This document shows, in pieces, positions 1,571-48,758 of a stretch of 51,253 nucleotides of DNA. How positions within the stretch are numbered: position 1 is the first letter of the stretch; every line of letters begins with the position of its first letter. Made by a program: the position numbers and the translations under genes. The notes beneath the pieces were generated by a model, which was not told the DNA's origin, searched no databases, and was given only the letters and a program-made list of their open reading frames with translations. The stretch comes from a phage: the sequence record NC_105436.1. The stretch is one strand, 5' to 3'.

Positions 1571-2686
1571 ATGAAAAATGTAAAAATTACAGATGAGCAA
1601 TTCAAGATCGAACGGGCGGCAGGTAAGACATATAAACAGATCGCTCAAGAGTACGGAATGAATGTGAGAAGCGTCGAGCGTCGCGCGGCGCGCCTTGCAA
1701 AACAAGGACAGCTATCAACCATCGGAGCGCCTGGTTTTGGTGTTCATGGTGAGTCAGTAATGACTGACAAAGAAGGAAATATAATCCTCAAGTGGACCAA
1801 AACCAGCAAGGATAAAGAGCAATTAGAGGCATTGATGCGCGCAGCAATGGAGGCGTTTAGCGAGGAAGTGCCGCGATTAGATCCAGTTCCATTGCAGGAG
1901 CGTAATTATAATGAAACGCTTTCATTGTATCCGATCTTTGACATGCACTTAGGCGCTATGGCCCATAAGCACGAATGCGGCGAAAATTGGGATACTGCGA
2001 CGGCAGAGCGCGTTATGAATAACTTTATCGACTATGCTTTGATGTGCGCGCCGGACAGCGAAAAGGCTGTTATCCTGATTGGTGGAGATATGCTGCATAG
2101 CGACGGCCTGGAGGCGGTGACACCTGCAAGCGGTCACGTACTTGATCAAGATAGCCGATATGCAAAATTGGTTTACGTTGCAATACGTGCAATGCGCCGC
2201 GCAATTAATAAAATGCTGTTAAAGCATAAACATGTTGAGGTCCAGATCGTAGAGGGGAATCACGACCAATCAGGAATGATTTGGCTACGCGCAGCAATGG
2301 CGGCAGCATATGAGAACGATCCGCGCGTTTACGTTGATGTTTCTCCTCGCGTTGTTCACCACACGCAATACGGAAAAACTTTCCTTGCGTACCATCACGG
2401 GCACACAGTGCGTAAACCTGAGACTTTGCTAATGATGTGCGCGTCAGATTGGCGGGAGGACTTCGGAAACTCAAAAACGATGTATGCGCACGTAGGGCAC
2501 TGGCATCACCAGACTGTGACGGAAACGTCGCTTGGCATCGTGGAGGTGCATAGCACCCTGGCGGCAAAAGACGCATACGCCGCGCGCGGTGGCTGGAGAT
2601 CTCGACGCCGTGCAGCGGTTATCATTTACGACAAAGAGCATGGAGAAGTTGGGCGATTTGTTCACTATCCAGAAATGATGAATTGA
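1571..2686 (+). CDS. HTH domain fused to calcineurin-like metallophosphoesterase
   Basis: Start taken at ATG 1571 (MKNVKITDEQ); N-terminal helix-turn-helix-like segment (KTYKQIAQEYGMNVRSVERRAARLAKQ); phosphoesterase motifs D-x-H (FDMHLG), GDxxD (GGDMLHSDG), GNHD (EGNHDQ), and His clusters HHGH and GHWHH. Confidence 0.65.
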   Translation: MKNVKITDEQFKIERAAGKTYKQIAQEYGMNVRSVERRAARLAKQGQLSTIGAPGFGVHGESVMTDKEGNIILKWTKTSKDKEQLEALMRAAMEAFSEEVPRLDPVPLQERNYNETLSLYPIFDMHLGAMAHKHECGENWDTATAERVMNNFIDYALMCAPDSEKAVILIGGDMLHSDGLEAVTPASGHVLDQDSRYAKLVYVAIRAMRRAINKMLLKHKHVEVQIVEGNHDQSGMIWLRAAMAAAYENDPRVYVDVSPRVVHHTQYGKTFLAYHHGHTVRKPETLLMMCASDWREDFGNSKTMYAHVGHWHHQTVTETSLGIVEVHSTLAAKDAYAARGGWRSRRRAAVIIYDKEHGEVGRFVHYPEMMN

Positions 2687-4205: not shown

Positions 4206-4253
4206 CAAATATACCCGACACTAGGCCGGGCGTTTTAACAAAAAATGCTATTC
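4206..4253 (-). promoter_or_regulatory. box cassette (minus strand)
   Basis: Minus strand reads ATAGCATTTTTTGTTAAAAC + hairpin + TATATT at 22-nt spacing, then conserved leader. Confidence 0.55.
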
Positions 4254-11018: not shown

Positions 11019-11047
11019 TGCTATCTCCTGAGCGGTTCGTTTCGATG

Positions 11048-12175: not shown

Positions 12176-12435
12176 TGAAAAAGGCATTAATCGGCGTTTT
12201 GGCGGCAATGGCACTCCTGACCGGATGCGAAAAGGCATCAGAATCAACGGTTGTCGTAGGCGTGGAGTCAGATTTCAAAGTCGGTCGCCTGTTCACTGTT
12301 GACGGATGCACAGCATACAGATTCTATGATAACGGTCGCGCGATCTATTACACCAATTGCAAAGGCGCAACGGATAGCACGTACAACAGCGGAAAGAACG
12401 TAATGCACCAGCAAGTCACAACAGATATTAAATAG
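12175..12435 (+). CDS. putative lipoprotein
   Basis: Signal peptide with lipobox LTGC; 86 aa, two further Cys in the mature part. Confidence 0.6.
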   Translation: MKKALIGVLAAMALLTGCEKASESTVVVGVESDFKVGRLFTVDGCTAYRFYDNGRAIYYTNCKGATDSTYNSGKNVMHQQVTTDIK

Positions 12436-12475
12436 CACTTTTTGTTAAAACGCCAGGCGCAAAGCCTGGCATAAT
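12431..12475 (+). promoter_or_regulatory. box cassette
   Basis: AATAGCACTTTTTGTTAAAAC + hairpin GCCAGG/CCTGGC + CATAAT. Confidence 0.55.
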
Positions 12476-12507
12476 AGCCTCATCGAAACGAGATTGAGGA
12501 AACAAAA

Positions 12508-14635: not shown

Positions 14636-15346
14636 ATGAAAAAATACACTTTCGAACTGTGGGGCAAGAAGTACGAATTAATCACCAGCAAGCCGATTGT
14701 TATCGTTGACCTGGACGGAACACTATCGGACGGTTCGCATCGTTTGCATTTGCTGCCAACTGAAAACTTGCACCTTACGGAATCGTGGCGCGAGTTTAAC
14801 AGGGCCGCCGCCGGAGATTCACCGATTAAAAGCACGATCGCGGTTATTAACGGTTTATGGGTGTCGGGATTTGCCATCGTCATCTTGACCGGACGCAGCG
14901 ACGAGGTTCGCTATGAAACCTGCAAATGGTTGAATGAGAACGGCGTGAAGTTTGACGAAATCATCATGCGCCGCCAGGAGGACAACCGAAAGGATACTGT
15001 TATTAAAGAAGAAGCCTTGCGCGCTATTGGCCTGGACAACATTGTTTGCGCCTTTGACGATTCGCCGAACGTGGTTAAGCACTTCCGCAGCTTGGGGATC
15101 ACAACCTATCAGGTCACGGAATACGACAAGCCACACGCTCACATACAATCTCACGGCGTGGAATCAATAAAGATCACGAAGCGCGCCCGATTCGTCGGCA
15201 GCAAAGACAGCCTGGTCAATGCCAGCTTTATCAAAGGCAAGGTTTATGATGTTCATAGCCATGATAAAAACCGATTCTTTTTGTGGGATGAAAAAGGTTT
15301 TGGCTGGTGCTTTGAACACGACGACGGCGATTTTGTTAATGCGTAA
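14636..15346 (+). CDS. HAD-superfamily phosphatase (nucleotidase or polynucleotide 3'-phosphatase-like)
   Basis: DxDGT motif (VIVDLDGTLSDG) near the N-terminus; start taken at ATG 14636. Confidence 0.6.
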   Translation: MKKYTFELWGKKYELITSKPIVIVDLDGTLSDGSHRLHLLPTENLHLTESWREFNRAAAGDSPIKSTIAVINGLWVSGFAIVILTGRSDEVRYETCKWLNENGVKFDEIIMRRQEDNRKDTVIKEEALRAIGLDNIVCAFDDSPNVVKHFRSLGITTYQVTEYDKPHAHIQSHGVESIKITKRARFVGSKDSLVNASFIKGKVYDVHSHDKNRFFLWDEKGFGWCFEHDDGDFVNA

Positions 15347-15388
15347 TAGCACTTTTTGTTAAAACATCTTAACGGGCTTGCGGTATAG
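15345..15388 (+). promoter_or_regulatory. box cassette
   Basis: Box + hairpin GGGCTT/AAGCCC with TATAGT in the loop + leader CCCATCGACAACGAAAGAGGA. Confidence 0.55.
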
Positions 15389-15420
15389 TAAGCCCATCGA
15401 CAACGAAAGAGGAAACAACG

Positions 15421-18357: not shown

Positions 18358-18399
18358 TAGCACTTTTTGTTAAAACTTCCGCAAGGGCATTTGGTAAAG
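18356..18399 (+). promoter_or_regulatory. box cassette
   Basis: Box + hairpin AAGGGCA/TGCCCTT with TAAAGT in the loop. Confidence 0.5.
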
Positions 18400-18432
18400 T
18401 GCCCTTATTGAAGCGAAACAGAGGAAAGCGCA

Positions 18433-21010: not shown

Positions 21011-22578
21011 TGATCATATGGGAAGATTTGACGGCGGCGCAAAAGCGAGCCATTAAAGAAATCAGTGAGCATTCATTCGAAAAGATGATCAGGATCTGGT
21101 TCCAGTTATTGCAGGGGCAAAAATTCCAGAGCAACTGGCATTTTAGCTTATTGTGCAGTGAGGTAGAGAAGATCATCAATGGAGAGTCGCAGAATGTGAT
21201 TTTCAACATTACGCCAGGTAGCGGCAAGACTGAGATTTTCTCGATCCACATGTCACCCTACGCGTCATTGAAAAGCCGGAAAGTGAGAAACCTTAACCTT
21301 TCGTTTAGTGATGGCCTTGTGCAGCAAAACAGCAACCGGATAAAGGAGATTATTGGTTCTCCTGAGTGGCAAGAGCTATGGCCTGGAAAACTGGCAAAGG
21401 CGAGCGCTAAAGATCTGATAGTCACCGAAGGCGGCAAGGTTAAATTGCAGGTTAACTCACGTTCTATTGGCGGCCAGGTAACAGGTTTGCGTGGCGGCTA
21501 TATGGATGATGGTTTTACTGGTATGCTGGTTCTTGACGATCCAGACAAGCCGGATGATATGCTTTCTAAGGTCAAGCGCGAGGCTATTCACATGCGGTTA
21601 AAAAACACAGTGCGATCGCGTCGAATGAAAGACACAACGCCGATTGTTATGGTGCAACAGCGACTACACGTTAATGATTCCACATGGTTCATGCTTAATG
21701 GCGGAATGGGTGGTATTGAGTTTAAAGTCGTGAGCATTCCTGCGCTGGTTACGAAAGAATACCGCGAAACGCTTCCTGATTGGTTGAAGCCTGAATTTGA
21801 TCGTGATGTGCTGTCAAGTAAGCCAGTGATGATAGATGGCGTTGCTCATTATTCATTTTGGCCTGCGAAGGAAAGCGCGGAGGAGTTGCTTGCATTGCGC
21901 AATGCAGATCCTTACACGTTCGCCAGCCAATACCAACAGCAACCAATCGCGCTTGGCGGGAACGTGTTTAAAACAGAGTGGTTCCAGTATTACGGCAGCG
22001 GAGAAAAGTGCGCACTACCAAAACCGGATCGCTTTGAATACACATTTATTACTGGAGATACCGCGCAGAAGGCCGGAGAGCTTAACGACTATTCAGTTTT
22101 TTGTTATTGGGGGATGTATAAGAATCGCGTTTACTTCATTGATGGCATTCGCGGAAAGTGGGAAGCGCCGGATCTTGAATTAAATTTTATTGCCTTCGTT
22201 AACCAGTGCTGGAAGCGCAATAAGGAGTGTGGCAGCTTGCGACGTATCCACATTGAAGATAAGGCCAGCGGCACGGGTTTGATTCAGGGGGCCAAAAAGA
22301 AGATCCCGATTGATATAAATCCCGTTCAGCGAAGCAATGACAAGGTGACGCGAGCAATGGACGCCGCGCCAGTAATGAGGGCCGGACGTGTGGCGCTGCC
22401 AGAAAATCACCCCATGCTGCCTGAGATACTGGCAGAGGTTGCAGCATTCACTTTTGATGATTCTCATCCCCATGATGATATTGTCGATAATATAGTTGAT
22501 GCTGTTAACGTCGAAATGAACTTGGCAGATGATCCGGTGGCAAGGATGAAAAAGCTGGCTGGTCTACGCAATAAATAG
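21010..22578 (+). CDS. terminase large subunit
   Basis: Walker A (NITPGSGKTEIFS), Walker B-like (LVLDDPDKPDD), 522 aa. Confidence 0.85.
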   Translation: MIIWEDLTAAQKRAIKEISEHSFEKMIRIWFQLLQGQKFQSNWHFSLLCSEVEKIINGESQNVIFNITPGSGKTEIFSIHMSPYASLKSRKVRNLNLSFSDGLVQQNSNRIKEIIGSPEWQELWPGKLAKASAKDLIVTEGGKVKLQVNSRSIGGQVTGLRGGYMDDGFTGMLVLDDPDKPDDMLSKVKREAIHMRLKNTVRSRRMKDTTPIVMVQQRLHVNDSTWFMLNGGMGGIEFKVVSIPALVTKEYRETLPDWLKPEFDRDVLSSKPVMIDGVAHYSFWPAKESAEELLALRNADPYTFASQYQQQPIALGGNVFKTEWFQYYGSGEKCALPKPDRFEYTFITGDTAQKAGELNDYSVFCYWGMYKNRVYFIDGIRGKWEAPDLELNFIAFVNQCWKRNKECGSLRRIHIEDKASGTGLIQGAKKKIPIDINPVQRSNDKVTRAMDAAPVMRAGRVALPENHPMLPEILAEVAAFTFDDSHPHDDIVDNIVDAVNVEMNLADDPVARMKKLAGLRNK

Positions 22579-22603
22579 CACTAATTGCTAAAAAGTTATA
22601 TAA
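22573..22603 (+). promoter_or_regulatory. box variant upstream of portal gene
   Basis: AATAGCACTAATTGCTAAAAAG followed by TATATAAT at shorter spacing, then terminator-like hairpin. Confidence 0.4.
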
Positions 22604-22607
22604 TCAA

Positions 22608-22632
22608 GGCTGGATTTTTCCAGCCTTTTTTA
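22608..22632 (+). terminator. terminator-like hairpin + T-run
   Basis: GGCTGG/CCAGCC stem + T6, immediately followed by ATTATGGAG. Confidence 0.5.
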
Positions 22633-22648
22633 TTATGGAGATTTGACT

Positions 22649-27180: not shown

Positions 27181-27192
27181 CATAAAAACATC

Positions 27193-27220
27193 TTGCACGT
27201 TTAACAAAAAGTGCTATCAT
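27193..27220 (+). promoter_or_regulatory. sigma70-like promoter (TTGCAC-16-TATCAT) with inverted box as spacer
   Basis: Spacer GTTTAACAAAAAGTGC is the reverse complement of the box core; upstream of the major capsid gene. Confidence 0.5.
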
Positions 27221-27261
27221 CTAGGCCGTTACATTTAACGGCCTTTTATGGAGGAAACAAA

Positions 27262-28233
27262 ATGGCTAAAAAATATGATGAACTAGATGCTACGATTGTA
27301 GCGAATCATTTGCAGATTCAGGGTGTTAAGACCGACGCTTCTGATATGGGTATTTGGACCGCTCAAGAGCTACACAAGATCCGCTCTACCGCATACGAGA
27401 AAGAGTATCCGGCAGGTTCCGCGCTTCGCGTATTCCCTGTAACAAACGAACTTTCTGATACTGACAAGACTTTCGAATATCAGACTTTTGATAAGGTTGG
27501 CTACGCGAAAATTATCGCCGACTACACCGATGATCTGCCGACTGTTGACGCGTTGATGACTTCTGAGTTTGGCAAAGTGTTCCGCCTGGGTAACGCTTAT
27601 CTGATCTCCATTGATGAGATTAAAGCAGGTCAGCGAACTGGCAAGAGCCTGTCAACTCGCAAGGCTAACGCTGCGCAAAATGCGCATGATCAGTTGATTA
27701 ACTTCTTGGTGTTCAAAGGTTCTAAGCCTCATAAGATCGTTTCCGTTTTCGATCATCCTAACCTTACGAAAATTGCATCCAAAGGCTGGATGAGCAATGA
27801 CGGCAATACCAAGTTCCCGCAGGTAGCAAGCGATGAACTGGAGGCCGCAATCGAAACGATCGAGGAAGTAACAAAAGGCCAGCACCGCGCGACTAACATC
27901 CTGATCCCGCCGTCCATGCGCAAAGTCCTGACGGTTCGAATGGAAAATACCACTGAAAGTTATCTGGAATACTTCCAGAAGCAAAACGGCGGTATCACTA
28001 TCGACTCTATCGCAGAGCTTGAGGATATTGACGGCAAAGGTACGAAAGGTTGCTTGGTTTACGAAAAAGATCCAATGAACATGAGCATTGAGATTCCAGA
28101 AGCGTTTAACATGCTTCCGGCGCAGCCAAAAGACCTACATTTCAAGGTTCCTTGCACTTCCAAGTGTACTGGCCTTACGATTTATCGTCCGTTTACGATG
28201 GTGCTAATTACTGGCTTGAAAAAAGCTGAGTAA
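27262..28233 (+). CDS. major capsid protein
   Basis: Start at ATG 27262 (RBS GGAGG); about 323 aa; own promoter TTGCAC-16-TATCAT; call by size and synteny. Confidence 0.6.
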   Translation: MAKKYDELDATIVANHLQIQGVKTDASDMGIWTAQELHKIRSTAYEKEYPAGSALRVFPVTNELSDTDKTFEYQTFDKVGYAKIIADYTDDLPTVDALMTSEFGKVFRLGNAYLISIDEIKAGQRTGKSLSTRKANAAQNAHDQLINFLVFKGSKPHKIVSVFDHPNLTKIASKGWMSNDGNTKFPQVASDELEAAIETIEEVTKGQHRATNILIPPSMRKVLTVRMENTTESYLEYFQKQNGGITIDSIAELEDIDGKGTKGCLVYEKDPMNMSIEIPEAFNMLPAQPKDLHFKVPCTSKCTGLTIYRPFTMVLITGLKKAE

Positions 28234-30219: not shown

Positions 30220-30882
30220 ATGCACTTGCCTAATGGTTCTCAAATTTTCATCGGCGTTAATATGGGTGAGCCAATTAGCGCGACTCAAATCAGCAATGCT
30301 GATAATCCTGTTTTTACAACCGAAAACACTCAAAGCATCAAAAAAGGCGCTTATGTTCTTATTGAAACATCTTCTTGGGGCAAACTTGTTAGTCGAGTGC
30401 TTCGAGTTAAGGAAGTATCAGATAATGCAAGTGTTACTCTTGAGGGTGTTAGCACTAAAGATACAAACGTATTTCCAGAAGGACAGAACACAGCAACTTT
30501 CCGAGAAGTGAAATCTTGGGTAGAGGTTCCTTGCGTACAGGATCTTGCGCAGGACGGCGGCGAGCAACAGTATTACACTTATCAGTGTTTGGCTGATGAC
30601 CAGGAACAGCAGTTGCCGACCTACAAGAGCGCCGTTTCTCTTACCTATACTTTCGCGCATGAATATGATAATCCGATTTATCCGATCTTGCGCGAGGCTG
30701 AGGAATCCGGCGACGTAACAGCTTTGCGTATGTACGTGCCGAAAGCTAAAGAGATGCGTTGCTGGGCTGGCGTATTGTCTTTTAATGACATTCCGCAAAC
30801 CACTATGAACGAAATGGAAACTGTTTCCCTTTCCGTATCTCTGAAAGGTCGATTCACGTTCTTACCTTCTGACGTTAAGTAA
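30220..30882 (+). CDS. major tail (tube) protein
   Basis: 220 aa with RBS AGGAGG, followed by terminator and then the tail chaperone pair. Confidence 0.55.
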   Translation: MHLPNGSQIFIGVNMGEPISATQISNADNPVFTTENTQSIKKGAYVLIETSSWGKLVSRVLRVKEVSDNASVTLEGVSTKDTNVFPEGQNTATFREVKSWVEVPCVQDLAQDGGEQQYYTYQCLADDQEQQLPTYKSAVSLTYTFAHEYDNPIYPILREAEESGDVTALRMYVPKAKEMRCWAGVLSFNDIPQTTMNEMETVSLSVSLKGRFTFLPSDVK

Positions 30883-30885
30883 AAC

Positions 30886-30908
30886 AAGGGGCGTTGCGCC
30901 CCTTTTTT
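30886..30908 (+). terminator. rho-independent terminator candidate
   Basis: AAGGGGCG/CGCCCCTT stem + T6, after the tail tube gene. Confidence 0.65.
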
Positions 30909-30942
30909 CATTCCTGTAAAATCAATCTATCAAATAAATTAA

Positions 30943-30968
30943 TTCCACTTTTAACAAAAAGTGCTATA
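30943..30968 (+). promoter_or_regulatory. inverted box copy upstream of tail chaperone gene
   Basis: CACTTTTAACAAAAAGTGCTATAAGGAG: reverse-orientation box abutting the RBS. Confidence 0.4.
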
Positions 30969-30981
30969 AGGAGATCTTGAG

Positions 30982-31299
30982 ATGGCAAAGATGAAACTAA
31001 CGTTAGGCCCACTGCCTGATTTTAAACTGCCTGTTTCTTTCGTGCTTCCAAATGGTGATGAGCAAGTTATTGTTTTCACTGTGCGCCACAAGAAGGCAAG
31101 CGAGATTCACGAACGATACACGGCAGAAAAGCCGATGAGCGACGTAGAAATGATCACCTTCCTTGCTTCCGGTTGGGATCTGGAAGATGAATTTAACGAG
31201 GAAAACGTTGCTAAATTGCTGGATTATTACCCTTCTGCGTCATTATCGCTGACTGGTCATTATATGAAAGCACTTGCGGGGCAGCGGGTAAAAAACTAA
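30982..31299 (+). CDS. tail assembly chaperone (gpG-like)
   Basis: 105-aa ORF ending at slippery A-AAA-AAC directly before its stop; immediately upstream of tape measure. Confidence 0.7.
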   Translation: MAKMKLTLGPLPDFKLPVSFVLPNGDEQVIVFTVRHKKASEIHERYTAEKPMSDVEMITFLASGWDLEDEFNEENVAKLLDYYPSASLSLTGHYMKALAGQRVKN

Positions 31300-34752: not shown

Positions 34753-35514
34753 ATGACTAATAAAGAATCAGGTAGAGTTGAATTTGAGAACTGCCTACAA
34801 AGTTTGTACCCAGGTGAAATTATAACGCTTGTAGAGATTGACGGGACGAAGTTTGGGGCAAATATTTACCGATTTCACAATGAAAACATCTCTTATACTG
34901 CCGAAGAATTAATGCAAGCGCAGCAAACTGGAATCTTGCCGCCGAAAGATATTATTTTCCAGGGTGAGGTTTACGGAGCGCGGCCTTTCGGTGTGAGCGG
35001 GATTAACTTCACAAGTAACGGCAGGGCAGATAAGCCTCAGCTTATAGTGTCAAACCTTGACAGCAGGGTTAGCGCCATGATCAGAAACTACAATGGCATG
35101 ATGCAAGCAAAGGTGACTTTCTGGATTACGGCAAAGGAATTTATAGGAGAAGGCGGAGCAATCAAAGATGGCGCTTACAGAAAATTGGTTTATTACATTG
35201 AGCGCCCAAGCCAGTATAATAGAGAGGTGGCGAAATTTGATCTGACATCGCCTTACGATATGGATGGATTAATGATCCCGCCGCGCATCACTCAAAGCGT
35301 TTGCTATTGGGCGCAAAGGGGGTGGTACAGGAGCGGAAAGGGTTGCTCTTATAACGGATCGGCAATGTTCGATAAAGACAATAAGCCAGTAACAGATCCA
35401 TCACAAGACTATTGCGCCGGAACTGTAACGGCTTGCAAATTGAGATTCGGTCAGCAAAACGAGTTGGATTTCGGCGGTTGCGCGGTGGCGTCACTGCTAC
35501 GGAGGAATCAATAA
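34753..35514 (+). CDS. minor tail protein (lambda gpL-like)
   Basis: 253 aa, Cys-containing C-terminal part, synteny. Confidence 0.65.
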   Translation: MTNKESGRVEFENCLQSLYPGEIITLVEIDGTKFGANIYRFHNENISYTAEELMQAQQTGILPPKDIIFQGEVYGARPFGVSGINFTSNGRADKPQLIVSNLDSRVSAMIRNYNGMMQAKVTFWITAKEFIGEGGAIKDGAYRKLVYYIERPSQYNREVAKFDLTSPYDMDGLMIPPRITQSVCYWAQRGWYRSGKGCSYNGSAMFDKDNKPVTDPSQDYCAGTVTACKLRFGQQNELDFGGCAVASLLRRNQ

Positions 35515-36828: not shown

Positions 36829-36851
36829 ACCCGCCTTGCGCGGGTTTTTTT
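36829..36851 (+). terminator. terminator-like hairpin + T-run
   Basis: ACCCGC/GCGGGT stem + T7, followed by TTTATAATG upstream of the gpJ-like gene. Confidence 0.55.
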
Positions 36852-36900
36852 GTGCCTTTATAATGTGCAAACCAAGAAACAGCACAAAAGGTTAAAAGTC

Positions 36901-39900
36901 ATGGCTAAATATATGATAAGTGGCAGTAAAGGTGGCGGTCAAAAGCCCTACGTGCCAAAAGAGATGGAAGATAACCTAATCTCGATAAATAAGATTAAAG
37001 TTTTGCTTGCTGTATCTGACGGCGAGTGCGATCCAAATTTCACGTTGCGCGATCTTTATCTTGATGATGTTCCGGTTATTGCCAGCGATGGCACTGTTAA
37101 CTACGAGGGAGTTACGGCTGAATATCGACCAGGTACGCAGACGCAAGATTACATCCAGGGGTTTACTGACACATCAAGCGAGGTGACAGTTTCGCGAGAT
37201 ATTACAGCAGACAATCCTTATGTTATATCTGTGACAAACAAAAATCTTTCTGCAATCAGAATCAAGATTCTGATGCCAGTTGGCATGAAGCAGGAGGATA
37301 ACGGCGATCTTGTTGGCGTAAGGGTTCAATATGCCGTAGATATGGCTGTTGATGGCGGTTCTTATAACGAGGTTATGAGAGATGTAATTGACGGCAAGAC
37401 GAGATCAGGATATGACCGCAGCAGAAGGATTGATCTTCCTAAGTTTGATGAGCGCGTTTTAATCAGGGTCAAGCGACTGACTCCAGACAGCACATCTTCA
37501 AAGGTGACTGATAAAATCAAACTGCAAAGTTACGCTGAGGTTGTGGATGCAAAATTCCGTTATCCTCTGACTGGCCTTGTATTCGTAGAATTTGACAGCG
37601 AATTGTTTCCTACGCAAATCCCTAACATTTCTATAAAAAAGAAATGGAAGATTATTAATGTGCCAAGCAACTATGATCCAATATCAAGAGAATATCACGG
37701 GTCATGGGATGGGACTTTTAAAAAAGCGTGGTCAAATAATCCTGCTTGGGTTCTTTATGATCTGGTAACGAATCAGCGTTATGGGCTTGACCAGCGAGAG
37801 TTAGGAATACAGATCGACAAGTGGAGCTTATACGAGGCAGGCGTTTACTGCGATCAGAAAGTTCCAGACGGTAAGGGCGGTACAGAGCCTCGCTACCTAT
37901 GCGATGTGGTGATTCAGAATCAAGTTGAGGCTTATCAGCTAATCCGTGACATTTGCTCAATCTTTCGCGGAATGAGCTTTTGGAATGGTGAGAGCTTATC
38001 AATCGTGATTGATAAGCCGCGCGATCCATCATACGTGTTTACTAATGAAAACGTCATCAACGGTGATTTTCAGTACACAACCGCAAGCGAAAAAAGCATG
38101 TACACGCAATGTAATGTGACGTTTGACGACGAACAAAACATGTATCAACAGGACGTCGAGGGGGTTTTTGATACTGAGGCTGCATTGCGATTTGGATACA
38201 ATCCAACAAGCATTACAGCGATCGGGTGTACACGCAGGAGCGAAGCGAATCGTCGCGGTCGGTGGGTTTTGAAAACAAACCTTAGAAGCACTACTGTAAA
38301 CTTTGCTACCGGACTAGAGGGGATGATTCCATCCATAGGTGATGTGATTGCTATCGCTGATAATTTTCAGAGCAGCAATCTAACGTTAAATCTTTCGGGC
38401 CGAGTAATGGAAGTTTCAGGCTTGCAAGTTTTCGTTCCGTTTAAAGTTGATGCGCGTCCTGGTGATTTTATTATCATCAATAAGCCGGACGGCAAGCCAG
38501 TTAAGCGAACGATCTCAAAGGTGAGCGCAGACGGAAAAACCATTGAGTTAAATATTGGCTTTGGTTTTGATGTTAAGCCTGATACTGTTTTTGCGATTGA
38601 CCGTACTGACCTTGCGTTGCAGCAATACGTTGTGACAACTATCAGCAAGGGTGATGACGAAAACGAGTTTACCTATTCAATCACGGCTGTAGAGTACGAT
38701 CCGAACAAATACGACGAGATTGATTATGGAGTAAACATTGATGACAGGCCAACTTCAATTGTTCAGCCTGACGTGATGGCAGCGCCTGAGAACGTGCAGA
38801 TCTCTTCTTATTCTCGCGTCGTGCAGGGTGTAAGCGTTGAAACTATGGTTGTGTCGTGGGAAAAAGTTCCTTATGCGTCACTGTATGAAATGCAATGGCG
38901 AAAAGGTGATGGCAACTGGCTGAATACGCCGCAGACAGCTAACAAAGAGATAGAGGTAGAAGGGATTTACTCGGGGAACTATCAAGTAAGGGTTAGATCT
39001 GTTTCTGCAAGTGGGAACACCTCCCCGTGGTCAAAGATTGCAACCGCCACACTGACAGGTAAAGTTGGCGAGCCAGGGGCGCCGATTAATCTTACAGCTT
39101 CTGATAATGAAGTTTTTGGCATTCGTGTCAAATGGGGTATGCCGGAAGGATCAGGCGATACGGCTTACATTGAGCTTCACCAATCGCCAGACGGAACGGT
39201 TGAAAACTCAAGCCTGCTTACGCTGATTCCATATCCTCAATATGAGTATTGGCATAGCACGTTACCAGCGGGTCAAGTTGTATGGTATAGAATCCGTAGC
39301 GTTGACAGGATCGGCAACGTTTCCGGCTGGACTGACTTTGTTCGTGGCATGGCGTCAGATGATGTTGAATCTGTTTTAGGCGACATTCTGGACAAGATTT
39401 TTGATACCGAAGCGGGTCAAGAAATCAAAGAGAACGCCATAGACAGTGCCAACAAAATCAAAGACCAAGCGCAATCAATCATCCAGAACGCATTAGCAAA
39501 CGATGCTGATGTGAAGTGGACGCGAGTACAAAACGGAAAGCGTAAGGCTGAATATGGTCATGCTCTTGAGCTTATCGCCAACGAAACTGAGGCGCGCGTA
39601 ACTCAAATCGAAGAGTTAAGGGCGTCAATTGATGAAGATATAGTTTCAAGTATCAAAACCGTTCAGGAAGCGATTGCCAACGAATCAGAGACGCGAGCTA
39701 CTCAAGTTCAGCAGCTTGATTCTAAATTTACGAAGGAAATAGACGGCGTAAAACGAGATACGGCTGCAAGTATTGGTGAGGTAAGGCAAACCATTACCAA
39801 TGAATCAGAAGCGCGCGCTCAGGCCGTTCAGCAGCTTGACGCTAAGTTCACGAAAGAGATAAACGACCTTGACGGAGTTATCAAAACAGAAGTCGAGGCT

Positions 39901-44485: not shown

Positions 44486-47104
44486 TTATTTGAGATCAAC
44501 AAGTTTTGCAACCATCGACTTTAATTCGTCAACCTCACTTCTTAGCGATCGCAATTCCTCCTCCTGCTCTTTGCAAACTTGCAATATGTATGCAGTTACC
44601 GCTGAGTAGTCAACTTGTAGAAATCTTTCCTTCCCAATAAGTTCGCTACCGTCTTTTGTTGGGCCATGCAATTGCTGATAATCCTCAAAAGAACTAATAG
44701 CCTCCGGCACAACCTCCATGATCTCTTGAGCTATAACTCCAGCATAAGGCATACCATCTTTCTTTAACGTGTATGTATACCCACTAACTTTCTCAAGACC
44801 TAGCCTTGCATTTTCAATTGGTTTAATGTCAGTTTTCAAATCTCTGTCTGACCCCTGGTTAAATGCTGTTGCGTTCACAGGTCCGTTAACTTGCAGGTGT
44901 TTAGAGTTATTTGAGTTTAACTGAGCATAGAACACCCATCCAGGGCCGTTATCGAAACCCCACTCAATAACCGACTGACGATCTGACCCGTTGCCCCACA
45001 ACTTGAAGGTTGCCGGGTGTGACGAGTTGCCATCGTTCAGCATTTTGAAATACTTACCACTCGGTCGGTCTATCTCCAAACTCGCCGCCTGTACATATGC
45101 TTTCCCCGCGAAATTCTTAGTTCCGAGTACGACGCCGTCGGTGATCAACTCAACCTTAGAAGACGTGATGTCGTTCAGAAACAGCGCGCTCGTTCCGGTG
45201 TCCTTCCCTAAAAACCAAAGACGTGTGCCAGCGGAGTTGTACCCTGTTACGTGCAGTGGTTGGTTGTTTGTTGACGCTGTTCCGTCGATACGAAAACCGC
45301 CATTAGCAGTTGTAACTTTAATGGTTGGTACGGTCATAGCGAATGCGCCACTGGCAGCAAGGCCGTTATACGCGATCAGCTTGTTGTCATACGCAAGCTC
45401 ACCATTGTCGCGCATTTGTAGCACTTTCTGCGACGTCCTGTTGCGAATGCCAACATCCGTGCCGCCTACAAACATTTCGACGATTCGATCACCGCTTTTA
45501 GCTCTCACGTAAGCGTTATATTCCGGCGACGACCCCGCGTTATACAACTCGTACCATTTCGACCAGATGCCAGTAGTCGCGTTACTAAGCCATCGCATAA
45601 AACGACGCCCGCTATTGTATCCTGTAAACGTCTGTATGCAGCTTTTAGGATCGTTAGCGCCAGTGCGCTGAACAAGTAGACAACCTGCTTCCTGAACGGG
45701 ATAATTACGCTCCGGCGTTGCGTTGGCAGATAAGCCAGTATAATAAAATCCAGCCTTATCACCCTGAAGGATGTTAAGGTCTTCGCTAACCAACGTTGCC
45801 CTGCGCTCATGCATGACCTGAAGGTTGGCGCGCGCTCCCTGGTCGTTCGATGCGCCTGTCCCACCGTCCCCGATCGCCACGTCACCGTTAGCACCCAGCT
45901 TCGCCAGTTCAATGGCGCCCACATTTCCAGATGAGCCGTTAATCGCGGCATTGTTTCCAGCGAAAACCTTCACGCGAGAGGTCTGGTAGTCAACGTTAAA
46001 CGCAAAAAATGTGTCACCAGCCCCGCCGCACACCCCTGGACCATACCTGAACGGCGTCATCTCGCCAGAAGGGAACTGCGTAATATCATCGACGCGCCAG
46101 AATCCTCCTTTGACAGTATCGCGCAACCGCTTGAGCATATCCCTTACGCCAGTCGGCGCAGGTAATGTTACACCCGCATACGGCACTCTATTTTGAGCCT
46201 CTGAACTTTCAGCAGCAGCCGCTGCGCGATCAGCCTCTGTTTTAGCCTTGCTTGCACTGTTTGCAGCATTAGTTTCAGATGTTTTGGCGTTTGTCTCAGA
46301 AGTCTTCGCGGCACTAGCCGAGTTAGCAGCATTAGTTTCCGATGTTTTAGCCGCATTCTTACTTGCATTAGCTGCATTTTCAGATGCTTTGGCATTAGTT
46401 TCCGATGTTTTAGCAGCAGATGCAGAATTAGCAGCAGCAGCCTTGTTTGCGCTTGAGTTTGTCTCTGATTCCTTTGCGTTAGCTGCCGCGACTGAAGCCT
46501 CATTCCTGAAATTTTCAGACTCGTATCTATACCTTTGGGCGTCTGTTTTGCTGGTATTTGCTGCATTTTCAGATGCTTTGGCATTAGTTTCCGATGTTTT
46601 AGCCGCATTCTTACTTGCATTAGCTGCATTTTCAGATGCTTTGGCATTAGTTTCCGATGTTTTAGCGTTTGTCTCAGAAGTCTTCGCAGCGCTGGCGCTT
46701 TGTTTTGCTGATTCAGCGCCTTGTTTCACCTGATTTACAAGATCTTTCAACCCATCAAGATCGAAATCTCTAAAAAATTCAAGTGCGTCAGCGATCTCCG
46801 TTTCCTTGCTTTGATAGTAACGCAGTGTTTCCGCTACGTCCTGCGCCAGCCCGTCAACCGTTAACGAGTCATGAAGCAAGATCAGGTAATTTGTCTTTTG
46901 GACTACCGCGCCGCCAGTAGTAATTGCGCGAATGCTTGTATCGCTAATCACCTCTGTAATCACAGCAGCTTGCAAAGGTTGAGTAAGAAAGAAAATAGTT
47001 GCACCTGGGCGAATTAATGTTAATTGCTCACGCCATTTTGTATCGTAACCAGTTACATAACCTTGCGCGTCCATAGACGCTTGGCCTTGTCTGTAAATCG
47101 CCAT
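44486..47104 (-). CDS. lateral tail fibre with C-terminal intramolecular chaperone (peptidase S74-like) domain
   Basis: Start at ATG 47104 (RBS AGGAGG); tandem Ala/Ser/Thr/Asn-rich repeats; C-terminal segment ([30 protein letters not shown] ... [12 protein letters not shown]) typical of the auto-cleaving fibre chaperone domain. Confidence 0.8.
46250..46700. repeat. tandem and dispersed direct repeats inside the tail fibre gene
   Basis: Units such as GCATTAGTTTCCGATGTTTTAGC and GTTTGTCTCAGAAGTCTTCGC recur several times; they encode the A/S/T/N-rich protein repeats. Confidence 0.8.
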
Positions 47105-47120: not shown

Positions 47121-47154
47121 AATAGCACTTTTTGCTAATGACAATGCAGATAAT
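47121..47154 (+). promoter_or_regulatory. box copy facing away from adjacent fibre gene
   Basis: AATAGCACTTTTTGCTAA on the plus strand directly abutting the minus-strand fibre gene RBS; no plus-strand gene downstream. Confidence 0.35.
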
Positions 47155-47170
47155 AGCATTTTCAAGTGTA

Positions 47171-47194
47171 AAAAAAACCCCCGCATAAGCGGGG
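47171..47194 (-). terminator. rho-independent terminator candidate (minus strand)
   Basis: Minus strand CCCCGCTTATGCGGGG + T7, downstream of the primase gene. Confidence 0.6.
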
Positions 47195-48187: not shown

Positions 48188-48194
48188 CTTATCA

Positions 48195-48671
48195 TTAGCT
48201 ATTCGTGCTGTTATCACCTTTGTAGAATCGTCCGCCTGGTTCGTAGTCTGAATTTTTGACTACGCGCAACATTTCGTATTTGTCGCAACGTGTAGTAAGA
48301 GGCTTGCCGTTAGAATCAAACCGCAGATCTGGACGACAAAACGAGGCGCGGTATCCTTTGCATCCATTATATTTGTAGTCGTTATGCACCTTTTGTGCTC
48401 CAGCGGCTGAAATCATACCACGCTTTCGCCACTGGTTAACGACTTGCTGAGATACGCGCAGACGTCGAGCCATAGCAGGAACACCGCCGTAATACTCGAT
48501 CAGAATGTCAAGGCGAGATTTCAGGCTTGCTTTTACCTCATCTCGCAGGATAAGAAATCCGGTTCGGTGTTTTCGTGGCTTTTTGTCTTTACCTCGTCGC
48601 GTTCCGTTGTTACCGTTAATAGTGCGCTTGTCGATCTCACCCGTAGACACTGCAATTCGTGCATCTTTCAT
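48195..48671 (-). CDS. putative HTH DNA-binding protein
   Basis: Helix-turn-helix-like segment (GGVPAMARRLRVSQQVVNQWRKRG); Cys-containing C-terminal region; divergent from the helicase gene. Confidence 0.45.
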   Translation of the reverse strand: MKDARIAVSTGEIDKRTINGNNGTRRGKDKKPRKHRTGFLILRDEVKASLKSRLDILIEYYGGVPAMARRLRVSQQVVNQWRKRGMISAAGAQKVHNDYKYNGCKGYRASFCRPDLRFDSNGKPLTTRCDKYEMLRVVKNSDYEPGGRFYKGDNSTNS

Positions 48672-48680
48672 CTAGTCACC

Positions 48681-48726
48681 TCATAGCATTTTTTGTTAAA
48701 ACAGTTTATTGTAATGAGTCTATTAT
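48681..48726 (+). promoter_or_regulatory. box cassette upstream of helicase
   Basis: CATAGCATTTTTTGTTAAAAC + 22-nt spacer + TATTAT. Confidence 0.55.
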
Positions 48727-48758
48727 ATACTCCAAATGGCATTTTTTAAAGGTTTAAG

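What the first reader, a model, noticed from the sequence alone, without database searches (positions are those of the whole stretch)
27193..27220. The box also occurs in inverted orientation inside late-gene promoters, and once facing away from its neighbouring gene
Upstream of the major capsid gene the reverse complement of the box forms the 16-bp spacer of a TTGCAC-16-TATCAT promoter. A second inverted copy sits at 30943-30968 upstream of the tail chaperone gene, and a forward copy at 47121-47141 points away from the adjacent fibre gene. Orientation-independent placement in both early and late control regions is more typical of a protein operator than of a core promoter element, so the same factor may activate early cassettes and modulate late promoters.
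Basis: inference. Interest (0 to 1): 0.6.

Follow-up and report, generated by a model that had tools for sequence, protein, structure and literature searches.

The report
Palindromic operator reused in late promoters
The repeated 19-base "box" of this T1-like phage has a palindromic core that looks like the docking site of a phage Cro-like regulator, and three copies upstream of the capsid, tail and fibre genes lie reversed and positioned to block rather than help transcription, which gives a testable answer to what these repeats are for.

Summary
The window is a Warwickvirus (Drexlerviridae, T1-like). All three inverted copies of ATAGCACTTTTTGTTAAAA exist where stated, far beyond chance. The capsid copy does fill the spacer of a TTGCAC-16-TATCAT promoter. 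That whole block is conserved in 37 distinct relatives, including T1 and TLS.

The tail-chaperone copy is not in a conserved late promoter. It is a complete box-type promoter pointing antisense, abutting the real sense promoter. The fibre copy is not an exception. It is inverted relative to the fibre gene, at about +4 to +22 of an extended -10 promoter.

The box core is a dyad, TAGCA-N5-TGYTA, which explains why orientation is free. At about 45 early promoters in three genomes the dyad sits exactly 19 nt upstream of a -10 hexamer, centred near -42, with no -35. That is class II activator geometry. Late copies overlap the -10, the spacer or the start site, which are repressor positions.

The best candidate binder is the family-wide Cro-like protein encoded at 48195-48671, whose own leader carries a box. 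No binding or transcript data exist. The operator reading is well supported. The identity of the binder and the direction of regulation are inferred.

The parts
27193..27198 (+). -35-like hexamer TTGCAC of the major capsid promoter. It is preceded by an A-tract at 27183-27187.
   Evidence: Conserved as TTGCAC, TTGAAC or TTGACG in 37 distinct relatives.
27199..27217 (-). Inverted box (reads ATAGCACTTTTTGTTAAAC on the minus strand). It fills the 16-nt spacer and the first 3 nt of the -10. The dyad centre is at about -18.
   Evidence: Box columns are at least 90% identical across relatives while the flanks drift. Also present in T1 at 15069 and in TLS as DR7.
27215..27220 (+). -10 hexamer TATCAT, with TG at 27212-27213 making it an extended -10.
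27223..27248 (+). GC-rich hairpin plus T-run that starts 2 nt after the -10. A start 7 nt after the -10 would fall inside its 5' arm.
   Evidence: -16 kcal/mol for the full hairpin against -5.3 when truncated. Arm sequences differ between relatives while keeping complementarity, read by eye.
27262..28233 (+). Major capsid protein gene.
30886..30904 (.). Bidirectional terminator after the major tail protein gene. Its loop and 3' arm carry TTGCGC (30894-30899), which is read as a -35.
30917..30922 (+). Sense -10 hexamer TAAAAT, 17 nt after TTGCGC. Conserved as TAnAAT in relatives. This is the likely real promoter of the chaperone and tape-measure unit.
30924..30932 (-). Antisense extended -10, TGA-TAGATT, exactly 19 nt downstream of the box on the minus strand.
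   Evidence: the box-19 nt-TAnnnT arrangement is present in 20 of 20 distinct relatives, with TGn in 16 of 20.
30949..30967 (-). Inverted box (19/19). It is the upstream element of the antisense box-type promoter and lies at about +21 to +39 of the sense leader, abutting the ribosome-binding site.
   Evidence: Absent from TLS-like phages and from Webervirus.
30982..31299 (+). Tail assembly chaperone gene.
47122..47140 (+). Box reading forward on the plus strand, and therefore inverted relative to the minus-strand fibre gene. It lies at about +4 to +22 of the fibre promoter and abuts the ribosome-binding site AGGAGG.
   Evidence: Present in T1 at 34902.
47150..47158 (-). Extended -10 promoter TGCTATTAT of the fibre gene, directly after the primase terminator.
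   Evidence: Conserved as TGCTAnnAT or TGATAAAAT in relatives with or without the box.
47179..47194 (-). Terminator of the primase unit.
44486..47104 (-). Tail fibre gene, with its ATG at 47104-47102.
22575..22604 (+). Co-directional box, 5 nt, then TATAAT upstream of the portal gene. The dyad centre is at about -28. A terminator hairpin follows at 22606-22627.
   Evidence: Conserved in relatives.
48683..48701 (+). Box that sits 19 nt upstream of the helicase -10, with its dyad at -42. The same box lies at about +15 to +33 of the divergent regulator transcript.
   Evidence: T1 (36444) and KpS4 (36360) have the same layout.
48721..48727 (.). Overlapping -10 hexamers. The helicase TATTAT is on the plus strand at 48721-48726. 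The regulator TATAAT is on the minus strand at 48727-48722, with its -35 TTTAAA at 48750-48745.
48195..48671 (-). Gene for a 158-aa Cro-like HTH protein, the candidate box-binding regulator.
12432..12507 (+). Representative early cassette: box, 19 nt with a hairpin, CATAAT, then the leader ATCGAAACGA starting at the predicted +1, then the ribosome-binding site. Other co-directional boxes are at 989, 12895, 14113, 15346, 15717, 17036, 18357 and 51172 (plus strand) and at 4233, 6395, 7069, 9268, 9774, 11078 and 41727 (minus strand). Weak copies are at 36879-36897 (plus) and 48192-48213 (minus).

Best explanation
The box is a DNA operator for a dimeric helix-turn-helix regulator. Its recognised core is the dyad TAGCA-N5-TGYTA, so the binder can sit on it in either orientation.

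At the many early and middle promoters the dyad lies at a fixed distance, centred near -42. These promoters have a good -10 but no -35. From that position the bound protein recruits host sigma-70 RNA polymerase, in the manner of a class II activator.

In the late region the same site is placed where a bound protein hinders the late promoter.
- At the capsid promoter it spans the spacer and the -10 (centre about -18).
- At the portal promoter it spans the -35 and the spacer (centre about -28).
- At the fibre promoter it covers the start site (centre about +14).
- At the tail-chaperone unit it drives a box-type antisense promoter whose -10 abuts the sense -10, so the two promoters should exclude each other.

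The most likely binder is the family-wide 158-aa Cro-like protein encoded at 48195-48671. Its own sigma-70 promoter is wired to a box in the same mutually exclusive way with the helicase promoter.

What is shown: the sequence anatomy, its conservation, the dyad and the spacings. What is inferred: that a protein binds, that it is this protein, and that it activates early units and holds back late ones.
For: 1. Dyad symmetry. At box position 9 as centre, 73% of arm pairs are complementary in 76 boxes from four phages, against 5-52% at other centres. The right arm is TGCTA in 35 boxes and TGTTA in 34.

2. Information content sits in two blocks about 10 bp apart with a free centre. Late copies vary at the same positions as early ones.

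3. The gap from the box to the -10 is 19 nt in 45 of 50 cassettes. The hexamer at the canonical -35 place is AAAACN. The conserved leader ATCGA begins at the 7th nt after the -10.

4. The capsid promoter block, spacer included, is conserved in 37 distinct relatives, while the adjacent coding sequence and hairpin drift. T1 has the same three inverted copies.

5. The late copies lie at -28, -18, about +14 and about +31. Variable placement that overlaps the promoter is what repression sites show.

6. At the chaperone site, box-19 nt-TAnnnT on the antisense strand is found in 20 of 20 relatives.

7. The regulator has a Cro-type HTH. The PDB sequence hits are Xylella Cro proteins (E = 6e-4). The AlphaFold model has pLDDT 86. 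The best Foldseek matches are Xfaso1 Cro and N15 Cro. It matches PHROG 2856, 'transcriptional regulator'.

8. Homologues of the regulator are found in 849 phage records, and in the protein database all but a few of the longer contigs carrying them are about 50 kb or shorter. The helix residues S-x-Q-x-x-N/Q-x-W are conserved in the window, T1 and KpS4, which share the box.

9. The regulator gene has its own sigma-70 promoter, whose -10 overlaps the box-dependent helicase -10.
Against: There are no binding, footprint or transcript-start data for any T1-like phage.

The link between regulator and box rests on position and co-occurrence only.

Several residues of the putative recognition helix vary across the family although the box is constant.

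If an early-made activator also represses the capsid promoter, something must later relieve it, and I have no evidence for what that is. The late sites are not clearly weaker than the early ones (27.7-31.4 bits against 25-36).

The flanks of the box (A at position 1, AAAA at positions 16-19) are asymmetric and strictly oriented in the early cassettes. A symmetric dimer alone does not explain that.

The C/T alternation at position 14 would also preserve a G-C or G-U pair in forward-strand RNA.
Confidence: 0.45

Rival explanations
1. RNA-level antisense control. Forward boxes lie at the 3' ends of early transcripts, and inverted boxes lie in late 5' leaders next to the ribosome-binding site. The two are complementary over 19 nt. 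Pairing could block translation of late messages, or trigger cleavage, while early RNA is abundant.
For: The chaperone, fibre and regulator copies lie in predicted leaders that abut the ribosome-binding site. Early boxes sit just before hairpins, some of which T1 annotates as terminators. Position 14 alternates C/T opposite a G.
Against: The most conserved inverted copy, at the capsid gene, lies upstream of its predicted start and would not be in the capsid mRNA. Conserved arms with a free centre, and a fixed 19-nt spacing to a -10, are DNA and protein signatures rather than pairing signatures. The chaperone copy comes with a conserved antisense -10, which makes sense only at the DNA level.
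Confidence: 0.1
2. Q-like antitermination. The capsid promoter is constitutive, and the factor binds the box between -35 and -10 once the polymerase has moved into a promoter-proximal pause. It then makes the polymerase resistant to the many terminators of the late region.
For: The site lies between -35 and -10 of a strong-looking promoter, with a hairpin and T-run immediately downstream. AT-rich, often -10-like hexamers occur in the hairpin loop of many relatives. The late region has a terminator after nearly every unit.
Against: About 20 other copies per genome sit at -42 of early promoters, which no Q protein does. No Q-family protein is annotated in SECphi27, T1 or KpS4. In Webervirus there is no hairpin downstream of the capsid promoter. 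A start 7 nt after the -10 would already disable the hairpin.
Confidence: 0.1
3. No dedicated factor. The box is an UP-like or -35-substitute element read by host RNA polymerase alone, and the late copies are relics of duplicated promoter modules whose sequence is kept for promoter strength.
For: The box is A/T-rich and contains TTGYTA. UP-element similarity was suggested for TLS (PMC11447400). The inverted GTGCTAT supplies a TGn-TAT extended -10 at the capsid promoter.
Against: TTGYTA lies 22 nt from the -10, which is too far for a -35. The central A/T tract is replaceable by GAA. RNA polymerase recognition predicts neither the dyad symmetry nor copies at +4 to +22 and +21 to +39.
Confidence: 0.1
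4. It is an operator, but for a different protein: a host factor or another phage protein such as the 371-aa nuclease with an N-terminal HTH-like segment.
For: The dyad and geometry arguments do not identify the binder. The 1571-2686 product has weak HTH matches (Sigma70_r4_2 at E = 0.0018, below the Pfam cut-off).
Against: The relatives carrying the box and the regulator infect several enterobacterial genera. The box does not match any E. coli factor site I could recall, which is memory and not a test. The Cro-like gene is the only annotated regulator in relatives, and it is wired to a box.
Confidence: 0.15

Closest known systems
21-nt intergenic direct repeats of phage TLS, also noted in T1, Rtp and Rogue1 (PMC11447400)
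   Same: It is the same element. The published consensus is aaATAGCACnnnTTGnTAAAA, with many intergenic copies upstream of genes. Its function was left as an explicit open question.
   Different: The paper states that all copies lie in the direction of transcription, about 76 nt from the start codon. Here three copies are inverted and 14-45 nt from the start codon. TLS's own DR7 is the inverted capsid copy. The dyad core, the fixed 19-nt spacing and the late-promoter placements were not described.
Lambda OR with cI and Cro (PRM activated from OR2 at about -42, PR repressed)
   Same: A dyad operator for an HTH dimer. One bound protein activates a promoter from about -42 and represses promoters that it overlaps. 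The divergent promoters are mutually exclusive, and the regulator controls its own gene. The candidate protein has a Cro-type fold.
   Different: This is a virulent phage with no lysogeny. There are about 20 operators spread over the genome instead of two clusters. The arms are spaced N5, not N7. The protein is 158 aa, with an invariant basic N-terminal arm and an extra C-terminal domain. The comparison rests on recalled lambda facts plus geometry. It is not a membership test.
Phage phi29 protein p4
   Same: In a virulent phage that uses host polymerase, one small DNA-binding protein activates one temporal class and represses another by where its sites lie relative to promoters.
   Different: p4 activates the late promoter and represses early ones, which is the reverse of what is inferred here. 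It is unrelated in fold and acts at one control region.
Mycobacteriophage L5 stoperators (gp71)
   Same: Many copies of one short site lie in intergenic regions across the genome, mostly in one orientation relative to transcription. TLS authors suggested this comparison.
   Different: As I recall, stoperators are asymmetric 13-bp sites that silence elongation in a lysogen. Here the site is a dyad, the phage is virulent, and most copies sit at a fixed activating distance from a -10.
T4 MotA box and middle promoters
   Same: Promoters with a good -10 and no -35 that depend on a phage-specified upstream box at fixed spacing.
   Different: As I recall, the MotA box is asymmetric, centred at -30, and needs AsiA. 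No MotA or AsiA homologue was seen in the annotations of relatives.

Membership tests
T1/TLS 21-nt intergenic repeat | Matches the consensus aaATAGCACnnnTTGnTAAAA. | tested here: met
   The three copies match 18/19, 19/19 and 16/19 positions of the window's 19-mer consensus. PWM scores are 29.6, 30.6 and 27.7 bits.
T1/TLS 21-nt intergenic repeat | Lies in the direction of transcription, about 76 nt upstream of the start codon. | tested here: not met
   The three copies are inverted relative to the downstream gene and end 44, 14 and 17 nt from the ATG. The 20 other copies in the window meet this feature.
Sigma-70 promoter with extended -10 (capsid copy) | A -35-like hexamer, a 16-18 nt spacer, a -10 with A at position 2 and T at position 6, and TG at -15/-14, all conserved in relatives. 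| tested here: met
   TTGCAC-16-TGC-TATCAT. Relatives have TTGNAC or TTGACG with TATCAT or TATATT. TTGCAC matches only 3 of 6 consensus positions, so the simple scan did not list it.
Sigma-70 promoter (chaperone copy, TTCCAC-16-TATAAG) | Both hexamers are conserved in relatives, and the start site leaves the ribosome-binding site in the transcript. | tested here: not met
   The -35 position is unconserved. The -10 position keeps only TAT. A start 7 nt after it would fall past AAGGAG.
Dyad operator of an HTH dimer | Inverted-repeat arms about one helical turn apart, with a less constrained centre. | tested here: met
   TAGCA-N5-TGYTA. Arm complementarity is 73% at one centre only. Information content is low at positions 8-10.
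Dyad operator of an HTH dimer | Specific binding by a cognate protein. | not testable with these tools
   Needs EMSA, footprinting or ChIP. Only a candidate is identified.
Class II activator-dependent promoter | Activator site centred near -41.5, overlapping the place of an absent or poor -35, at fixed spacing. | tested here: met
   The gap is 19 nt in 45 of 50 cassettes, which puts the dyad centre at -42 if the start is 7 nt after the -10. AAACN-type sequence occupies the -35 place. The start site is inferred, not measured.
Lambda-type Q antitermination | A Q-family protein, and a sigma-dependent promoter-proximal pause element. | not tested
   No Q protein is annotated in relatives, but I did not scan every ORF. 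The -10-like loops downstream are only suggestive.
Cro/YdaS HTH family (candidate regulator) | Passes the Pfam family threshold. | tested here: not met
   YdaS_toxin scores 28.7 bits against a cut-off of 30. P22_Cro scores 19.9 against 30.2. The fold match to Cro proteins has TM 0.72-0.75 over the Cro chain, so the protein is Cro-like and not a curated family member.

The most novel reading that the evidence does not exclude
One Cro-like protein runs the temporal programme of a whole family of virulent phages through about 20 copies of a single dyad operator. It switches on early units from -42. It holds back the capsid, portal and fibre promoters by occupying them. At two places (regulator/helicase and the tail-chaperone unit) it works through pairs of mutually exclusive, -10-overlapping promoters, one of which makes a short antisense RNA ending in the tail-gene terminator. 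All promoters are fused to terminators, so that each unit's own transcripts start inside, and so escape, the hairpin that stops read-through from upstream.
Probability: 0.25. Interest if true: 0.7.

Novelty: new variant of a known kind. Interest (0 to 1): 0.55.

Why it matters
T1-like phages (Drexlerviridae) are classical and widespread laboratory and therapy-candidate phages, yet how their genes are timed is essentially unknown. They encode no polymerase or sigma factor. A 2024 reannotation of TLS found only three ordinary promoters and named the function of the 21-nt repeats as an open question.

The dyad core, the class II spacing and the repressor-type late placements turn that question into a few direct experiments with one candidate protein. 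They would also give a compact, portable activator/repressor module. The terminator-fused promoters are useful in their own right as insulated expression units.

Tried and rejected
- Extended -10 promoters at every site. I first read the inverted box as one at all sites (TGC-TATnnn). I rejected this for the chaperone and fibre copies, because the hexamers lack a T at position 6 and the start would fall after the ribosome-binding site.
- TTGYTA as the -35 of early cassettes. Rejected, because the spacer would be 22 nt.
- Sigma-54 similarity (TGGCAC-N5-TTGC). Rejected on spacing and on the AG in place of the essential GG, by reading the sequence.
- Antisense promoters at the capsid and fibre copies. 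I looked for a -10 at 19 nt. At the capsid copy only 2 of 31 relatives have a TAnnnT hexamer 19 nt away, and no fibre copy has one. Only the chaperone copy has one.
- Webervirus 'boxes' about 3.1-3.8 kb downstream of the capsid gene start. They proved to be coding sequence at the start of the major tail gene.
- Distant regulator homologues outside the family, sought for a co-variation test. The weakest tblastn hit (PV296009) is an unrelated small Cro in a different phage and was uninformative.
- Literature searches for transcript-start or RNA-seq data on T1-like phages. They found nothing.
- Titration of the regulator by replicating genomes as the late switch. I considered it and kept it only as speculation, because the late sites are not clearly weaker than the early ones.

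Full report
**Identity of the window.** The late region is 96-98% identical to Escherichia phages brachmannus, orkinos and SECphi27. SECphi27 is classified as Drexlerviridae, Tempevirinae, Warwickvirus, and its gene map is nearly collinear with the window. These are T1-like virulent siphophages. None of the annotations I read (SECphi27, T1, KpS4) lists an RNA polymerase or sigma factor.

**The observation.** The box, written in the orientation it has upstream of early genes, is ATAGCACTTTTTGTTAAAA. With up to 3 mismatches it occurs 19 times, against 0.04 expected. A position-weight matrix finds 23 sites.

Twenty sites are co-directional with the gene downstream. Three are inverted.
- 27199-27217, before the major capsid gene (18/19).
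- 30949-30967, before the tail chaperone gene (19/19).
- 47122-47140, before the fibre gene (16/19).

The fibre gene lies on the minus strand and its ATG is at 47104-47102. All three inverted copies precede virion genes, against 2 of 20 co-directional copies (p = 0.0056).

TTGCAC (27193-27198), a 16-nt spacer and TATCAT (27215-27220) are as stated. The box provides the whole spacer, the TG of an extended -10 and the TAT of the -10.

**What was already known.** A 2024 paper on phage TLS describes the same element (aaATAGCACnnnTTGnTAAAA). It reports 18 intergenic copies, said to lie 'in the direction of transcription' about 76 nt upstream of start codons, and also present in T1, Rtp and Rogue1. 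The authors suggest stoperators, enhancer sites or UP elements, and list its function among open questions (PMC11447400). Their own table has DR7 on the opposite strand, next to terminator T35 in the late region. That is the capsid copy. I found no transcript-start, RNA-seq or binding data for any T1-like phage.

**The early cassettes.** This context is needed to interpret the box. In the window, T1 and Klebsiella phage KpS4, the 19-mer is followed by exactly 19 nt and then a -10-like hexamer in 45 of 50 cases. The other gaps are 18 nt (3 cases) and 20 nt (2 cases). Two of the 50 are the chaperone-site copies of the window and T1, described below. Typical hexamers are TATAGT, TATTAT and CATAAT. 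TGn precedes the hexamer in 19 cases.

The place where a -35 should be reads AAAACN. A conserved leader, ATCGA(A/C)AACGAA, begins at the seventh base after the hexamer, where a start site is expected.

The 19-nt gap usually holds a hairpin (mean z = -2.7; 33 of 50 below -1.64). T1's record annotates some of these hairpins as terminators. These are therefore promoters fused to the terminator of the preceding unit. They have a good -10, no -35 and an upstream box at fixed distance.

**The box is a dyad.** In 76 boxes from four phages, positions 2-6 (TAGCA) are complementary to positions 12-16 (TGCTA in 35, TGTTA in 34). Complementarity is 73% at that centre and 5-52% at every other centre. Information content sits in two blocks about one helical turn apart, around a free centre that reads TTT, GAA, TAA and other triplets.

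This is the anatomy of an operator for an HTH dimer, and it explains why the element can work in either orientation. With the start 7 nt after the -10, the dyad centre in early cassettes is at -42. From established knowledge of class II activators (CRP, FNR, and lambda cI at PRM), that is where they sit.

**The capsid copy.** I collected 79 loci around capsid homologues (53-99% protein identity), plus T1. Thirty-seven distinct upstream sequences share one block: an A-tract, TTGNAC, GTTTAACAAAAA(G/A)TGC and TAT(C/A)(A/T)T. Box columns are at least 90% identical, while the end of the scaffold gene and the downstream hairpin drift.

An ordinary promoter spacer would not be held constant like this. 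In Webervirus (capsid about 55% identical) the site is degenerate (ATATCACGAATCGTTAAGC) and the terminator lies upstream instead. In this promoter the dyad spans about -11 to -25, over the extended -10 and the base that must flip out on melting. A protein bound there should exclude polymerase.

**The chaperone copy.** The region between the tail-protein terminator and the chaperone gene comes in two forms. TLS-like phages and Webervirus have a short leader and no box. The window, T1 and others carry an extra segment with the box.

A conserved TAnAAT hexamer (30917-30922) lies 17 nt after TTGCGC in the terminator loop, and is the likelier sense promoter. That places the box at about +21 to +39.

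Read on the other strand, every one of 20 distinct sequences shows the box, exactly 19 nt of unconserved sequence, and then TAnnnT. TGn precedes that hexamer in 16. This is the full early-cassette architecture, pointing antisense toward the bidirectional terminator. Its -10 (30929-30924) abuts the sense -10, so the two open complexes should exclude each other. The capsid and fibre copies have no such antisense -10.

**The fibre copy.** In 80 loci the layout is a terminator, then an extended -10 (TGCTAnnAT), then 4-9 nt, then the inverted box, then the ribosome-binding site. In Webervirus and TLS-like phages the same promoter is present without the box. In the window the box covers about +4 to +22, which is a start-site-blocking position.

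**Other late copies.** A co-directional box sits 5 nt upstream of a perfect TATAAT before the portal gene (dyad centre about -28) and is conserved in relatives. A weak co-directional copy lies in the leader of the J-like tail gene. T1 has forward copies just before its small terminase and tail genes. Late copies therefore occur in both orientations and at several positions, whereas early copies are locked in register. Fixed geometry suggests activation, and variable promoter-overlapping positions suggest hindrance.

**The candidate protein.** The 158-aa product of 48195-48671 matches PHROG 2856 'transcriptional regulator'. Its Pfam matches to YdaS and P22 Cro are just below threshold. By sequence it hits Xylella Cro proteins in the PDB.

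An AlphaFold model (pLDDT 86) has a folded core from residue 40. Its best structural matches are Xfaso1 Cro and N15 Cro. Residues 14-33 (DKRxxNGNNGTxRGxDxxxR) are nearly invariant but predicted disordered, as a DNA-contacting arm might be.

Homologues occur in 849 phage records, essentially all Drexlerviridae. In the protein database all but a few of the longer contigs carrying them are about 50 kb or shorter. Helix residues S, Q, N/Q and W are shared by the window, T1 and KpS4, which share the box.

The gene has its own sigma-70 promoter, TTTAAA-17-TATAAT. TLS has TTGACT-N17-TATCAT. That -10 overlaps, on the other strand, the -10 of the box-dependent helicase promoter, and the box lies in the regulator's leader. 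This is the same mutually exclusive pair as at the chaperone site. It suggests autoregulation and a switch from an immediate-early to a box-dependent phase.

**Limits.** Binding, the identity of the binder and the direction of regulation are all inferred. A regulator that activates early units and represses the capsid promoter needs a mechanism of later relief. I have none beyond speculation, and the late sites are not clearly weaker than the early ones. The asymmetric A-rich flank and the strict orientation in early cassettes are not explained by a symmetric dimer. They may relate to the adjoining terminator or to stop codons, since TAG or TAA of the upstream gene often lies in the box. The rival explanations are weighed in their own section.

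**Verdict.** The operator interpretation is strengthened and refined. Two details, the chaperone 'promoter' and the 'facing away' copy, are corrected. The element is published, but its inverted late copies, dyad core and geometry are not. I rate the finding as a new variant of a known kind of system, of moderate interest.

Noticed in passing
window 27215-27248 and 22599-22633: At the capsid and portal promoters a strong terminator hairpin begins 2 nt after the -10. A start 7 nt after the -10 would fall inside the 5' arm. Read-through RNA would then carry the full hairpin (-16 and -16.8 kcal/mol), while the promoter's own RNA would not (-5.3 and -3.7). This looks like a way to insulate units.
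   Followed up: partly
window early cassettes, for example 12451-12480, 15365-15395 and 18376-18405; T1 and KpS4 likewise: The 19 nt between the box and the -10, or the sequence flanking the -10, almost always forms a hairpin whose sequence differs from cassette to cassette (mean z = -2.7; 33 of 50 significant). T1's record annotates some as terminators, so the -10 doubles as the U-rich tail.
   Followed up: partly
window, for example 12476-12487, 15389-15401 and 11029-11040: A conserved leader, ATCGA(A/C)AACGAA, starts exactly at the predicted +1 of many early cassettes in the window, T1 and KpS4. Its function is unknown.
   Followed up: no
window 30880-30932, minus strand: The antisense box-type promoter would make an RNA of roughly 40 nt that consists mostly of the tail-protein terminator hairpin read backwards. 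If it is not terminated, it would be antisense to the 3' end of the major tail gene.
   Followed up: partly
window 48721-48727: The helicase -10 (TATTAT, plus strand) and the regulator -10 (TATAAT, minus strand) overlap by 5 bp. T1 has the same arrangement.
   Followed up: partly
window 36836-36903: The terminator loop TTGCGC is followed after 17 nt by a perfect TATAAT before the J-like tail gene. A weak box-like sequence (ACAGCACAAAAGGTTAAAA, 11.6 bits) overlaps that gene's ribosome-binding site. T1 and TLS have a similar copy.
   Followed up: partly
protein of window 48195-48671, residues 14-33: The most conserved part of the regulator is not the HTH. It is a basic, Gly/Asn-rich N-terminal segment (DKRTINGNNGTRRGKDKKPR) that is predicted to be disordered.
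   Followed up: no
TLS supplementary table S1 (PMC11447400), DR7 at 15044..15024: The published table lists this repeat on the negative strand within the positive-strand late region, next to terminator T35. This contradicts the text's statement that all repeats lie in the direction of transcription.
   Followed up: yes
window 1571-2686: This 371-aa protein matches PHROG 704, 'DNA repair exonuclease', with a sub-threshold Pfam Metallophos match. It also has a weak N-terminal HTH-like match (Sigma70_r4_2 at E = 0.0018, HTH_28 at E = 0.0097), which is unusual for such an enzyme.
   Followed up: no
window 12433-12435, 14114-16, 15718-20 and 22576-78: The TAG inside the box (ATAGCAC), or a TAA ending on its first A, is often the stop codon of the upstream gene. 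Coding sequence therefore runs right up to the operator.
   Followed up: no
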